Assembly (NCBI RefSeq): GCF_006345805.1
Contig: NC_043005.1
Span: forward strand, 55,800,001 to 55,864,000
Direction: 5' to 3'
DNA from: Octopus sinensis
Taxonomy: Eukaryota
DNA length: 64,000 bases
In this document: positions 17,656 through 62,499 of the stretch, in pieces
How positions within the stretch are numbered: position 1 is the stretch's first letter
How the letters are laid out: each line of letters starts with the position of its first letter
Position numbers and translations under genes: made by a program
The notes under the pieces: model-generated
The model's input: the letters and a program-made list of their open reading frames with translations, nothing else
What the model was told of the DNA's origin: nothing
Database searches by the model: none

Positions 17656-17694
17656 TCACCTGAAGATCTCAGTGACATGAAACACATGTCATGA
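17656..17694 (+). ncRNA. Degenerate minimal hammerhead ribozyme
   Basis: tcac-CTGAAGA-tctc agt gaca t-GAAA-CACATG-TC-atga. Reverting two CpG-type transitions gives palindrome ACACGTGT and stem I tcac/gtga. Confidence 0.55.
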
Positions 17695-18059
17695 TGTGTG
17701 TGTGTGTGTGTGTGTGTGTGAGAGAGAGAGAGAGAGAGAGATTGTTAGTAATAATGAACTCTATATATATACCATAATATATAATCAATTTACTTGGCTG
17801 TAACCAAAAGCTGTTCTCACATCTATCAGCCGAGTCCTCACATCTAAAACCTTTGTGAGACAGTAACCAAATCAGAACAAAGCAATAACATGCATACATG
17901 CCTGCAGGAAGACAAACACACATATCAAACAAGCTAATACAAGTACTTGCTTTAATAACGTGAAATTTAACATCATTGTGTGATTAGAGGTTCAACTTTT
18001 GATTATTCTTTTATCTTGTTTACAGTTGAAAGGTGTCTGAGAGAGTGATATGCATTAAA

Positions 18060-18350
18060 CTTTATATCTTGAATTTTCTTTCTTGTAAACAAGAACAGTA
18101 AGTTTCTTCCTTCTTATTTAGGATACTGCCTAGCAGAATTGATATATTAAAGTTTTCAGATGCTCATAAGCTGCAATTACTGTCAAACTATTGTATATCT
18201 TTCTCTTTGCAGCTATGCTCCATTTTATTACATGGTAATCTATTTTTTGGTTATTCAACTGCCAGATGTCCTTTGATAATGTAGAGGGATTTGGGTTTTC
18301 TTTTTTTCTGTATCTGAATGAATGGGTGTGCTGTCTGTATAGACACACAA
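18060..18350 (-). pseudogene. Penelope-like element GIY-YIG endonuclease C-terminal remnant
   Basis: Frameshifted translation HTHSFR..K...STLSKDIWQL....IDY.VIKWSI..K...YN / CSL*ASEN / ILNKKEETYCSCLQERKFK fits the PLE pattern H..SF...T.LSK.IW.L...WSI...C.LC..EK...LNKR.E....C.H..KF. Confidence 0.65.
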
Positions 18351-18385
18351 TTTCTCAAATTCAATTTGTTTGTAGCAAAGGGACA

Positions 18386-18427
18386 ACTATGGACATGTTT
18401 TGGCCTATTAGATCTCATCAGCATAGT
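18386..18427 (-). ncRNA. Degenerate minimal hammerhead ribozyme (G12 to A)
   Basis: Minus strand: ACTATG-CTGATGA-gatct aat aggcc-AAAA-CATG-TC-CATAGT. Perfect 6-bp stem I, palindrome ACATGT and GUC triplet. GAAA is mutated to AAAA at a CpG. Confidence 0.68.
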
Positions 18428-19942
18428 ACAAACTAAATGAGCGTGCTAACCAATAGATAAATTTTGTGTAGAAAAATAGTCATACTTATTTTTGGCTGGA
18501 ATAGTGTCTGTAAACTAAGACAAAAGTTTTCTTTCTCTAAACTTGTAAATTACCTTAAAAAAATTATTTCTTAATTTCTTTAAATTTTCTCCCCCTTAAC
18601 GTTTTGCTGTTATATCTTCTACTCCAACACAAGAAATTTCATTAGGCAGCTTTAAAAAATGTTTGTGTGCATAGCAGCCTAATTTTCTGCATTTATGCCT
18701 TTGGCCCATATGAACTATTTCCCATTGATCTTTCTGTGTTTAGCTACACAAATTATTCTGACTAAAAATTTATGTAACTTTTTGTATAAGTAAATATCTA
18801 CCTATTTTTGCTGGCTTGAGTAAATATACTTAAATGGACCAAAACATGTCCTTTGTTATTACTTGTCTGCAAATAGATATCAGTCTATTCTTTCTCAACA
18901 TCTAAATAAATATGAGAGGATAAATCATTAATTTCTTGAAATCATCTCCCCTTTTCACTGAGAATGACAAACAGTTGTAATTACATATTTGTTTTCTCTA
19001 ATTTAGAAGGAAATTTCAATTAAGAATCTTTACACATGACATTAATTATGCCACCCAATTCGTGTATAATTCATTTCCCTTCAATTGCAATCTGCGAGTT
19101 ATTTCCCTTACCCACTCATGTAAAAGTGTTTTCTTAAATCATGCAAGATTTTTCATGTTATTAATGTACACTTGTATGAAGGCAATGGGATGCATGTGCT
19201 CTTGTTCCATCTTGTATGTATAACTATTATTCTTTTCTGCTCCTAGGACTACCATATTATGAAGTTTTTTTATAAATACTTTGTCAGATGGGTAGTCATG
19301 GATGAAAAGAAAGAGATGAGACTCTGGCAAAAGTAAAAGGATTAAGAGAAGGAAGAGAAAAAGAAATAAAGAATTATACCTAACTCATCACAACTGCTTA
19401 TTTTGCAGGTTGATGTGTGCATGTGTATGTGTGTGTGTGTGTGTGTGTGTGCATGTGTGTGTATATTGACACACATTAATACAGGCAGACAGACAGATAG
19501 GCAAATAGACAAATATAGCTATACGTATGTATATATTTATCTTGACTGTTATTTTTCTGTGCAGATGCAACATTCCAAGTGACTTCCCTTGGCCATTATG
19601 ATACACATGTATGCCTACATGTTTACATTATTTTTACATCAATATTGTGATTCTCTCATGAATAACTTGGCATGTATGGAGCAGGTTATGCTTCATTGAT
19701 GGGGTTTGATAAGACTGGAACTTCTCTGGACGTGTCACCTGTATTTACCTATTTCTTTACTACCCACAAGGGGCTAAACACAGAGAGGACAAACAAGGAC
19801 AGATAAACAGATCAGCGTGCTAATGATTCTGTATTTACCATGATAGTAGTCACAAAGGTAATAATAACATATTTTGTAAGGTTGCACAAAAGTTTTCAGG
19901 GCATATCAAGCAAGGCACTTAACCAAGAACTATTTTACCAAC

Positions 19943-59100: not shown

Positions 59101-61169
59101 TATATATATACATACATACATACATACATACATATATACACACACTCTCTCTCTCACACACATGCACACATTTATATTCTGTTATTCTTTTATATGTTTC
59201 AGCCTTGAGGTTGTGGCCATGCTGGATCATGTGTGTGTGTGTGTGTGTGTGTGTCTATCTGTCTGTCTGTCTGTATGTATATATGTATATGTATGTGTGT
59301 GAACAATAATATTTTCAACAGATGTGTTGCAAATGTATCTGATTGTTCTCAAGCTTCAATACTGTGTGTGTGTGTGTATGTGTGTGTGTGTATGTATGTA
59401 TGTATATGTATGTATGTATATGTATGTATGTATGTATGTATATATGTATGTATGTGTGTGTGTATGTATGTATGTGTGTGTGTGTGTGTGTGTATGTATG
59501 TATATGTATGTATGTATATGTATGTATGTATATGTATGTATGTATGTATGTATGTATATGTATGTGTGTATGTGTGTGTGTATGTATGTATGTGTGTGTA
59601 TATGTATGTGTGTGTGTATGTGCGTGTGTATGTATGTATGTATGTATGTATGTATGTATGTATGTATGTATGTATGTATGAGTGTATGTTTACTTTATTA
59701 CTAACAGAAGCCACTACGGTTATTTAATGTAAAGTCTTCCTCAAATCACTCTGTCTTGCTATTTACTCTCTTCCAAGAACATTTTCACTCACTCTTATTT
59801 GTTAGCTTCCCATACATTTTACTCATGTATCTATCAGCGTGATAGACAGAAACAAATATTACATCTAGTTTCACTTTATTCGTTACACAGTGTGTGTGTG
59901 CGTTTGCGTGTGGTGTAAACCAGACTAAGAAAAGCATTTGACACACACACCAGAATGTGAGTTTTCTGTAAATTTTGCTTAATTGGAGTTTAAATTTTAA
60001 AAACTGGACCTGGCATGACGCGATGCATTGTACTCTTAAAAATGCTAGGTAAATTGTAATTGAAGAAATCCTATATTGTAGATTTGTATAACTCCCAAAG
60101 GGAGGCAGATAAAATCTGCCTTTTATAATAAGAGATATATATATATATATATATATACATATATAAGCACACGCAAATGAACCCACACAAACCTCTCATA
60201 CACACACTCATACATACATGTACACACACATATGCACATATAAACACACACGCACACATACACAAAGTAAAGTACAGTTACTCCCCACACACACAACCCC
60301 TATGTATACACACATACACACACACACACTGCAAGCAAAAAACACACACACTACATATACATACACACACACATACTTCAAACTACCAGTACCTTCTACT
60401 GACCATTCTCCTACACACATGTATAGGTAAATACACAACAAGCAGCCATATAAAAGTAAAAATAAACATATAAGAAAAAAATGATATATGCATATTGATG
60501 TACAGATATTTTGTTGGATGGCCGTTGACCGTTCAGGAGTTCCTCCACCTTTGACAGGTCTTATTTTTCATCCCACAGGGTGTCCAACAGCACCCTCCAC
60601 ACCAAGCAAGCATGGTGGGGTTGCCAGTTTAGTCACTGATGACCCGACCATGCGACGGGTTGTACTGGATTACATGTTACCAGTAGCACTCAAGAGCAAC
60701 CTGACATAATTGTATATATATACATATATATGCATATATATATATGTGTGTGTATATATATATATATATTTGTATGTATATATATATATATATATATATA
60801 CATACACACACACACACACACACACACACACACACATATATACATACATATATATATATATATACATATAGACATACATATATAGATATATATATACATA
60901 TTAATATATATACATATATATATATATGTATATATATGCATATATATATATATATATATATATATATATATATAAATAAACAATGGTGATGATGATGATA
61001 ATATACACACACATACATTTATAAGGATCCAACCTGCCACCCACCCGCATAGTGTTGCCATCTAAGCAATGTGCACATGGAAAGTTGTGTTATTGCTCAT
61101 GTGGATTCCCAGGTCATGCACTGACTCTAACTCTGGGATTACATTACCTACTGGTCCCAAGTGCTTCAG

Positions 61170-61562
61170 CTATAGTTTCTTTGTGGGCTGATAGAGGAGT
61201 GCTAGAAATTTTGCACCATTGAACTGCACATTATTCTCATCAGCCCATTTATATATTGTGTTCAGGTCATTCTGCAGTCTTAAGATGTCAGCAGGATCCA
61301 TAACCGCTTGCAGTACATTTGTATCTTCAGCGTAGCTGGTGAGTGTGGCTGACTCTGTGGCTGAGAGCATGTCTGAGAGAGCAACCACAAACAGTAGTGG
61401 TCCCAGCACTGTTCTCTGGGGGACTCCACTGAAGATTGGTATCACTTCAGTGAGAGCACCATTTGCTGTGACAGCCTGACTTCTGTCATTCAGGAAACCA
61501 TGCAGCAACTCACCCAGTCTACCAGCAATACCGAGGTCATGCAATTTGTGACATATCATCCC
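61170..61562 (-). mobile_element. LINE reverse transcriptase fragment
   Basis: GMICHKLHDLGIAGRLG...RSQAVTANG...SGVPQRTVLGPLLFVVALSDM...SYAEDT...LQNDLNTIYKWADENNVQFN. Confidence 0.88.
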
Positions 61563-62000
61563 AAGATATATACATACACACACACACACACACACACACA
61601 CACAAATACATACATACATACATACATATATATATATACACATACACACACACACACACATATATATATATATACATATATATATATACACACACACACA
61701 CACACACACATATATATACATATATATATACACACACACACACACACACACATATATATATACGGGAGAGTGTTCCCAGGAAGACATCTCTTCCAACTGG
61801 CTAATGACACACATGCTGCGTCCAATTAGTATTTGTGAGGGAGGTCATTGCTCCACCCTCTAGCCTTATGTGATATACATGGACTTGAGTTTCTGGGTGG
61901 TTACCCATCCTTCTCGTGTGTTAATCATGAGCTTGTGATGAAAAATATATGTTACAATTCCATATTACTACTGTTTATATCTTGCTCAGAGATTTAATAT

Positions 62001-62352
62001 ACTCTCTTTTACTCTTTTACTTGTTTCAGTCATTTGACTGCGGCCATGCTGGAGCACCGCCTTTAGTCGAGCAAATCGACCCCGGAACTTATTCTTTGTA
62101 AGCCCAGTACTTATTCTATCGGTCTCTTTTGCTGAACCGCTAAGTGACGAGGACGTAAACACACCAGCATCGGTTGTCAAGCAATGCTAGGGGGACAAAC
62201 ACAAACACACAAACACACACACACATACATATATATATACATATATACGACAGGCTTCTTTCAGTGTCCGTCTACCAAATCCACTCACAAGGCATCGGTC
62301 GGCCCGGGGGCTACTGAAGAACCAGAAGAGCACTTACCACACAGCCACTCCT
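62001..62352 (-). mobile_element. SINE family A copy (CpG-rich, young)
   Basis: Reverse complement of family A with CpGs retained. Confidence 0.85.
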
Positions 62353-62452
62353 AGTTTATTTCTCCTTTTTTGAGATCAGCGACAGTTTGTTGCTGGAAAA
62401 AGCATATAGTATTTTGCAAGTGGATTGAGTTTTCATCACTAGCTGGTGATTA

Positions 62453-62499
62453 ACACACGCTGAGGATGGGTAACCACCCAGAAACTCGAGTCCATATGT
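62453..62499 (+). ncRNA. Minimal type I hammerhead ribozyme, intact core, weakened stem I
   Basis: acacacg-CTGAGGA-TGGG taacca CCCA-GAAA-CTCGAG-TC-catatgt. Stem III palindrome ACTCGAGT and GUC triplet. Stem I has 2 mismatches in 7. Confidence 0.72.

What the first reader, a model, noticed from the sequence alone, without database searches (positions are those of the whole stretch)
17656..62499. Six loci with distinct minimal hammerhead motifs in 64 kb, with different palindromic stem III sequences
Seen: hammerhead-type cores at 17656(+), 18386(-), 21628(-), 26559(-), both arms of 48393-48799, and 62453(+), which has a decayed mirror near 61875-61920. Stem III is ACTAGT, ACTCGAGT, ACATGT and ACAATTGT directly, and ACACGTGT and ACGT after reverting CpG transitions. 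Stem II sequences differ completely but keep pairing. Inference: this genome hosts several independent families of ribozyme-bearing Penelope-like or retrozyme elements at high density. Family-specific palindromes could restrict dimer-dependent cleavage to partners of the same family, acting as a simple recognition code.
Basis: partly seen in the sequence, partly recalled or inferred. Interest (0 to 1): 0.8.

Follow-up and report, generated by a model that had tools for sequence, protein, structure and literature searches.

The report
Decayed ribozyme-carrying retroelements with shifting palindromes
The six sites are worn-out copies of five lineages of repeated element that carry hammerhead (self-cutting RNA) motifs and were likely spread by Penelope-type enzymes; their short palindromes differ but are reused by unrelated families, so they likely let two RNA copies pair up rather than serve as a private family code.

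Summary
The motifs are real. Each site is a copy of a dispersed repeat family whose majority sequence fits a type I hammerhead. Motif counts far exceed shuffles and reversed-pattern controls (4,253 vs 111 genome-wide for one pattern). All eight window copies carry lesions, and the window is about six times denser than the genome sample.

The families are not all independent. The 26.6 kb and 62.5 kb elements are sisters in one ~356-nt retrozyme superfamily. The 21.7 kb element is a tRNA-type-headed SINE with a hammerhead and Penelope-type ends. The other three are older Penelope-like remnants.

Palindromes are not family-unique. The 17.7 kb family has ACTCGAGT like the 62.5 kb family, not ACACGTGT. 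Between unrelated families, stem I is predicted to discriminate more than stem III.

Within the retrozyme superfamily, though, the palindrome centre changes often yet stays self-complementary, and 14 of 91 subfamily pairs differ only there. A subfamily-level compatibility role is therefore not excluded. Hammerheads with palindromic stem III in Penelope elements and retrozymes are known since 2014-2020. Cleavage, circles and the partner enzyme were not shown here.

The parts
17440..17698 (+). Family A: old Penelope-like terminal remnant with hammerhead at 17655-17694; stems decayed; family stem III ACTCGAGT, this copy ACACATGT
   Evidence: 5' limit approximate
18365..18463 (-). Family B: old remnant with hammerhead at 18386-18427 (6-bp stem I, stem III ACATGT); G12 is lost in this copy by a CpG transition
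18833..18889 (+).
   Evidence: nhmmer E 1.7e-6
21549..21823 (-). Family C: SINE with tRNA-type A box (21806-21816) and B box (21762-21771), an AAC/AAT spacer, a hammerhead at 21628-21673 (family stem III ACGT; ATGT here) and a 3' tail at about 21549-21574
21148..23359 (-). Decayed LINE-like host sequence into which the family C copy inserted; host plus SINE recur together at other loci
   Evidence: 5' limit not reached
26339..26613 (-). Family D: 5'-truncated copy of a 356-nt retrozyme; hammerhead at 26568-26606, stem III ACTAGT; 3' arm of stem I mutated here
48376..48586 (-). Family E inverted arm; hammerhead at 48461-48558, palindrome broken
48595..48900 (+). Family E main arm; hammerhead at 48634-48731 with a ~70-nt stem II hairpin and stem III ACAATTGT; cleavage-site base is G here, A in the family
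   Evidence: 3' limit is the end of the query
61775..62001 (-). Family F inverted partial copy; first core bases lost, palindrome decayed
62352..62709 (+). Family F: unit-length copy of a 357-nt retrozyme, sister of D; hammerhead at 62453-62499, stem III ACTCGAGT; stem I carries CpG decay

Best explanation
The six sites are decayed copies of five lineages of non-coding repeat that carry type I hammerhead motifs and were likely copied into the genome by Penelope-like reverse transcriptase/endonuclease, and their palindromic stem III likely lets two copies pair into a double hammerhead rather than acting as an exclusive family code.

D and F: tandem source copies are likely transcribed and cut at both ribozymes. 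The ~356-nt monomer would then be ligated into a circle and reverse transcribed from fixed internal sites, giving the more-than-unit insertions seen.

C: a tRNA-type promoter likely makes a linear RNA that is copied, uncut, from one of two 3' start sites.

A, B and E are likely terminal-repeat remnants of older Penelope-like elements.

The centre of stem III is constrained mainly to stay self-complementary, so it likely drifts between palindromes. Any family specificity would come from stem I and stem III together, mostly stem I.

SHOWN: repeat families, motif anatomy, covariation, insertion geometry, reuse of palindromes. INFERRED: cleavage, dimers, circles, the partner enzyme, and drift as the cause of turnover.
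For: Copies: first-look candidates C 5,866, F 2,688, D 2,436, E 285, B 53, A 34; 2,091 exact matches to the 34-nt C core vs 0 control.

D/F: units of 356 and 357 nt; 17 of 51 and 20 of 48 pieces exceed one unit; 3' ends cluster at two sites and 5' ends scatter; both majorities fold as similar branched rods. Both orientations occur in 15 of 30 D, 13 of 30 F and 13 of 29 E loci.

C: 3' ends fall at 272-275 in 14 of 30 unbiased loci, at 241-251 in 13, and elsewhere in 3. An inverted 5' copy is present in 11 of 30. The tail is on only one arm in 8 of the 9 pairs where both arms reach the 3' region. This matches the optional Penelope 'tail' (PMC11167929, PMC8557442).

An 811-aa Penelope-like ORF with 21,035 candidates exists and carries its own hammerhead variant.

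Self-complementarity is kept: 43 of 74 inner 4-mers are perfect palindromes (chance 7%), as are 23 of 30 inner 2-mers (chance 27%). The innermost pair joins adjacent bases, which one strand cannot pair, yet it covaries (CG 13, GC 5, AU 1, UG 1 of 20 hand-picked rows). The natural tandem L264 has about 0.3 predicted probability of inter-copy stem III and swapped stem I. A G-U wobble form, ACTCGGGT (5 of 74), links ACTCGAGT and ACCCGGGT.
Against: No cleavage, circle or RNA end was observed. No sequence link was found between A-F and the 3' end of the one autonomous element compared. Near A-F loci only unrelated or incidental Penelope-like protein matches were found, and none in the window, so the partner is unidentified.

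Two of three tandem pairs held (L089, L277) are not predicted to form the double hammerhead. Single window copies fold no better than shuffles (z +1.4 to -1.5). The base pair at the foot of stem II is non-canonical in A, E and F majorities and the C cleavage triplet is GUU, so activity may be low. In one Penelope element, ribozyme cleavage was dispensable for insertion in vitro (PMC11167929). The palindrome centre varies more than most of the element, which drift alone may not explain. For A, B and E the evidence of Penelope origin is thinner than for C, D and F.
Confidence: 0.78

Rival explanations
1. Stem III, with stem I, is a selected compatibility code. Retrozyme subfamilies gain by changing the palindrome, because a new palindrome would escape trans-cleavage or unproductive pairing by the abundant RNA of older relatives.
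For: Palindromes track clades on a tree built without the ribozyme, with about ten distinct self-complementary forms in one superfamily. 14 of 91 subfamily pairs differ only in stem III. The inner four bases show 2.25 parsimony steps vs 0.95 elsewhere, matched by 2 of 159 four-base windows. In 52 unselected copies their diversity is 0.55-0.58 vs 0.34-0.35, matched by 2-6 of 199 windows.
Against: Palindromes are reused across unrelated families and by two autonomous elements. 9 of 91 pairs are fully cross-compatible, and ACTCGAGT persists in four subfamilies. Diversity at the centre is no higher than at other variable loop sites. Subfamilies were grouped by eye using ribozyme labels, which inflates that count. 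In tandems the partner is the neighbouring copy on the same transcript, so no code is needed.
Confidence: 0.14
2. The ribozyme folds are kept as a protein-binding or folding signal for the Penelope enzyme, and cleavage or dimer formation is not needed for these elements to move.
For: Family C copies keep the head upstream of the cleavage site, so their template was uncut. LINE-hosted C copies were re-copied through the ribozyme. Catalytic mutants did not reduce insertion in vitro for an anole element (PMC11167929).
Against: Catalytic core columns are nearly invariant across 14 subfamilies, and adjacent palindrome bases covary, which a single-strand signal does not explain. More-than-unit D/F insertions fit processed circles or multimers.
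Confidence: 0.06
3. The motifs are chance matches in AT-rich, CpG-depleted DNA.
For: No window copy passes a strict descriptor; Rfam named no hammerhead.
Against: Family majorities restore the motif at all six sites. Counts are 11- to 38-fold over reversed-pattern controls. Stems covary.
Confidence: 0.01

Closest known systems
Minimal hammerheads of Penelope-like elements (Cervera & de la Pena 2014, PMC4209133; parts 1-2 of 4 read)
   Same: Several consensus families per genome, palindromic positions 15.2-16.2 and loop 3, extra base before stem II, mostly solitary truncated copies, opposite-strand pairs 100-700 bp apart, U3-A8 core variant, proposed dimer cleavage.
   Different: No mollusc is named in the parts read, and supplements were not viewed. 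Family E's ~70-nt stem II is far longer than the 7-8 bp described. Family specificity of the palindrome is not discussed in the parts read.
Non-LTR retrozymes of animals (Cervera & de la Pena 2020, PMC7229834, passages; Li et al. 2026 bioRxiv 10.64898/2026.07.22.740005, parts 1-3 of 5)
   Same: Non-coding units of 170-400 nt with a type I hammerhead, self-paired fold, coexistence with Penelope elements; a coral has over 6,000 motifs in 16 families.
   Different: 'Octopus' does not occur in the 2020 main text. D/F copies seen here are mostly 0.5-2 units with inversions, not long arrays. Circles and a pLTR ancestor were not shown here.
Schistosome Sm-alpha / Sj-alpha SINE-like hammerhead elements (seen only as described in review PMC6765202, passages)
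   Same: RNA polymerase III promoter followed by a hammerhead in a short repeat.
   Different: Those propagate from tandem multimers cut by the ribozyme. Family C is dispersed, keeps its head upstream of the cleavage site, shows no head-to-tail join in 30 loci, and has the Penelope two-end tail signature.
Poseidon element of the green anole (Frangieh et al. 2024, PMC11167929; parts 1-2 of 4 read)
   Same: Two internal reverse-transcription start sites give an optional tail; AT-rich targets.
   Different: That element is autonomous and its tail is 30-40 bp. The family C tail is about 25 nt on the reference used, and D/F ends lie 50-60 nt apart.
HIV-1 dimer initiation site palindromes (recalled, not from a call)
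   Same: Alternative palindromes can limit RNA pairing between lineages.
   Different: A kissing loop, not a ribozyme stem; an analogy only.

Membership tests
Type I hammerhead ribozyme | CUGANGA and GAAA boxes, UH site, three stems | tested here: met
   Family majorities of all six; the window copies themselves are decayed
Type I hammerhead ribozyme | Compensatory changes in stems | tested here: met
   D/F superfamily: 14 of 19 pairs change on both sides in 20 hand-picked rows; not counted for A, B, C, E
Type I hammerhead ribozyme | Canonical G10.1-C11.1 pair | tested here: inconclusive
   Met in B and C majorities; A-U in D; mismatched in A, E, F
Type I hammerhead ribozyme | Self-cleavage | not testable with these tools
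   Needs in vitro transcription
Non-LTR retrozyme (D, F) | Non-coding 170-400 nt unit with one hammerhead | tested here: met
   356 and 357 nt
Non-LTR retrozyme (D, F) | Tandem or more-than-unit copies with two ribozymes | tested here: met
   17 of 51 and 20 of 48 pieces exceed a unit; three two-ribozyme tandems held
Non-LTR retrozyme (D, F) | Abundant circular RNA | not testable with these tools
   Only contigs of runs guessed to be RNA were available
Penelope-mobilised element | Fixed 3' ends with optional tail, 5' truncation, inverted 5' copy | tested here: met
   C, D and F; weaker for A, B, E
Penelope-mobilised element | Sequence shared with an autonomous Penelope element | tested here: inconclusive
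   None with the one family compared; other families were not catalogued
tRNA-derived SINE (C) | Internal A and B boxes at the 5' end | tested here: met
   Boxes 34 nt apart at 21806-21816 and 21762-21771; box consensus recalled
tRNA-derived SINE (C) | Identifiable parent tRNA | tested here: inconclusive
   ARAGORN found 0 genes in 9 loci; relaxed hits were inconsistent; no Rfam tRNA match
tRNA-derived SINE (C) | LINE-type 3' end (poly-A or shared LINE tail) | tested here: not met
   Copies end at two fixed sites with no A tail or common repeat; LINE tails were not catalogued
Exclusive palindrome code | One palindrome per family | tested here: not met
   Reuse across families
Exclusive palindrome code | Heterologous partners fail to cleave | not testable with these tools
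   Stacking-energy estimate only

The most novel reading that the evidence does not exclude
Circular retrozyme subfamilies in this genome run a self/non-self system: each changes its stem III palindrome, often by paired substitutions, to escape being cut or trapped by the RNA of its relatives. The genome also holds a tRNA-headed SINE that rides Penelope enzymes rather than LINE enzymes. The probability given is for the code being selected; the Penelope-driven SINE alone I put near 0.7.
Probability: 0.14. Interest if true: 0.78.

Novelty: new variant of a known kind. Interest (0 to 1): 0.42.

Why it matters
The core observation is known biology. Two things add value.

First, one superfamily with about ten palindromes and matched or mismatched stems I is a ready-made panel for an open question: whether these ribozymes work as dimers in trans, and what picks the partner.

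Second, family C, if confirmed, is a polymerase III SINE using the Penelope route with an uncut internal ribozyme. That would extend the list of SINE partners. Four searches found no paper holding the term sets, but subscription papers and repeat libraries were not searchable.

Tried and rejected
Rfam named no hammerhead or tRNA; the miRNA hits come from microsatellites and the inverted repeat. Minimum-energy folds of single copies were not diagnostic.

A local cluster was rejected, since the 60 kb of neighbours hold 1 hit. The search for the autonomous partner of A-F failed.

Expression: no RNA holder is listed on record. Runs guessed to be RNA hold D-like and F-like contigs. At two positions their variant mix differs from the unlabelled large run X15 (about 85-95% vs 9-16%). 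Contigs show no ends, strand or circles, so this is not used as evidence.

rows were picked by me from palindromic or wobble loci, so its 100% pairing in stem III is inflated; the unselected figure is. Lunse et al. 2017 was not held and may already discuss partner specificity. Earlier scan findings: none returned. The organism looks like an octopus from recalled genome traits; this was not tested.
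Full report
Setting. The window lies at G000:C9:55800001-55864000 in a 2.72-Gb animal genome. It is 35% GC with a CpG ratio of 0.33, and rich in microsatellites and short repeats. From recalled traits it looks like an octopus; I did not test that.

Observation. All eight stretches exist. A strict descriptor finds none in the window. 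Allowing CpG transitions and one mismatch per stem gives 5 hits, 4 palindromic, against shuffled means of 0.32 and 0.02; D and E are missed because of further lesions. In 73 ten-kb samples (729,800 bases) the same scan gives 19 hits, 7 palindromic, while ten shuffles give 1-9 and 0. The window is thus about six times denser than average, as about 155 windows would be by chance; the genome estimate is roughly 26,000, from 7 hits. Genome-wide patterns give 4,253 vs 111 and 1,752 vs 157 controls.

Families. Each site is a dispersed repeat, and alignments of 30 loci per family restore the hammerhead. Stem III is ACTCGAGT in A, ACATGT in B, ACGT in C, ACTAGT in D, ACAATTGT in E and ACTCGAGT in F. 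The window's A copy is atypical: 0 of 16 pattern-found relatives share its ACAC start. Lesions in the window copies include loss of G12 in B, a G at the cleavage site in E(+), loss of the core in F(-), and broken stems or palindromes in the rest.

D and F. Units of 356 and 357 nt align at 69.9% over 196 nt (E 1.7e-14). Pieces longer than a unit make up 17 of 51 and 20 of 48; 3' ends cluster at two sites and 5' ends scatter. Of 103 pattern-derived hits, 76 belong to this superfamily. These are the features of non-LTR retrozymes (PMC7229834), which a 2026 preprint derives from Penelope terminal repeats (10.64898/2026.07.22.740005). Of three tandems with two ribozymes, only L264 is predicted to form the double hammerhead, at about 0.3.

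Family C. It has A and B boxes, a trinucleotide spacer, the ribozyme and a tail, with 2,091 exact core matches. In 30 loci taken in genome order, 3' ends fall at two sites (14 and 13; 3 elsewhere) with no poly-A. Eleven have an inverted 5' copy, the tail is on one arm only in 8 of 9 informative pairs, and none joins tail to head. This is the Penelope insertion signature (PMC8557442, PMC11167929). The parent tRNA was not identified. Schistosome SINE-like hammerhead elements are the nearest precedent (review PMC6765202).

Enzyme source. A locus flank led to a young Penelope-like family: 21,035 candidates, with 140 scored at 94-100% identity. One copy has an 811-aa frame, with RVT_1 at E 2.9e-7; the GIY-YIG and cysteine-linker motifs were seen by eye only. 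Its 3' region carries a U3-A8 hammerhead variant with ACCGGT, as does a second family at about 46-60% protein identity. The first shares no significant sequence with A-F, so the partner is inferred by kind only.

The code. By topology, a type I double hammerhead swaps stem I as well as stem III. Stacking estimates give a larger loss from stem I in 21 of 21 pairs, and no stem III loss for A with F. Palindromes recur across unrelated families.

Palindromy itself is maintained: 43 of 74 inner 4-mers are perfect and 52 of 74 with G-U. Adjacent bases covary, which only pairing between copies explains (hand-picked rows). On a tree made without the ribozyme, palindromes follow clades.

Among 14 subfamilies, 64 of 91 pairs mismatch in both stems, 14 only in stem III, 4 only in stem I and 9 in neither. 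The centre changes faster than most of the element, but one search is biased by my grouping and other variable sites reach similar values. Drift under a self-pairing constraint is the simpler reading; selection for incompatibility remains open.

Literature seen. PMC4209133, parts 1-2 of 4; the preprint, parts 1-3 of 5; PMC11167929, parts 1-2 of 4. Passages only: PMC7229834, PMC8557442, PMC6765202, PMC6962438 (235 hammerhead matches in giant squid) and PMC10886601 (references only). No supplements were viewed, and these may list cephalopod motifs. Searches returned no paper with their full term sets; searches returned none describing octopus hammerhead elements.

Verdict. Real, largely known, with two fresh angles: the palindrome-shifting retrozyme superfamily and a likely Penelope-driven SINE. 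Interest 0.42.

Noticed in passing
window 21148-23359; L002-L021: The family C copy sits inside a decayed LINE-like sequence, and 20 other loci share host and SINE together. Eleven of the 20 stop at window 21141-21148 while their 5' ends vary, suggesting the composite was itself retrotransposed through an uncut ribozyme.
   Followed up: partly
L209:109-2541; Young, very abundant Penelope-like family with intact ORFs of about 811 aa and a U3-A8 hammerhead variant with a 2-bp stem II.
   Followed up: partly
L018, L417, L418, window 48634-48731: At least four unrelated-looking hammerhead motifs with very long stem II hairpins (about 55-75 nt).
   Followed up: no
L253, L174, L261 and others: Many retrozyme copies read CCGA instead of CUGA in the core, across several subfamilies; whether this is tolerated is unknown.
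   Followed up: no
window 1542-2000 (-): Open frame that looks like an exon of an EFHC1-like gene (recalled resemblance), so the window may be intronic.
   Followed up: no
window 43024-43400 and 56541-56614: 26-nt tandem array (14.5 copies), related to a dispersed repeat elsewhere in the window.
   Followed up: no
window 61170-61571 (-): LINE reverse transcriptase fragment (RVT_1, E 1.4e-7) near the family F inverted copy; a common SINE at 62004-62306 splits the F insertion.
   Followed up: partly
window 2429-3128 and 14297-14980: 700-bp inverted pair at 81% identity with a stop-free frame at 2531-3061, resembling a Tc1/mariner transposase remnant (recalled resemblance).
   Followed up: no
L258: A retrozyme copy has inserted into the middle of an autonomous Penelope element's hammerhead.
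   Followed up: no
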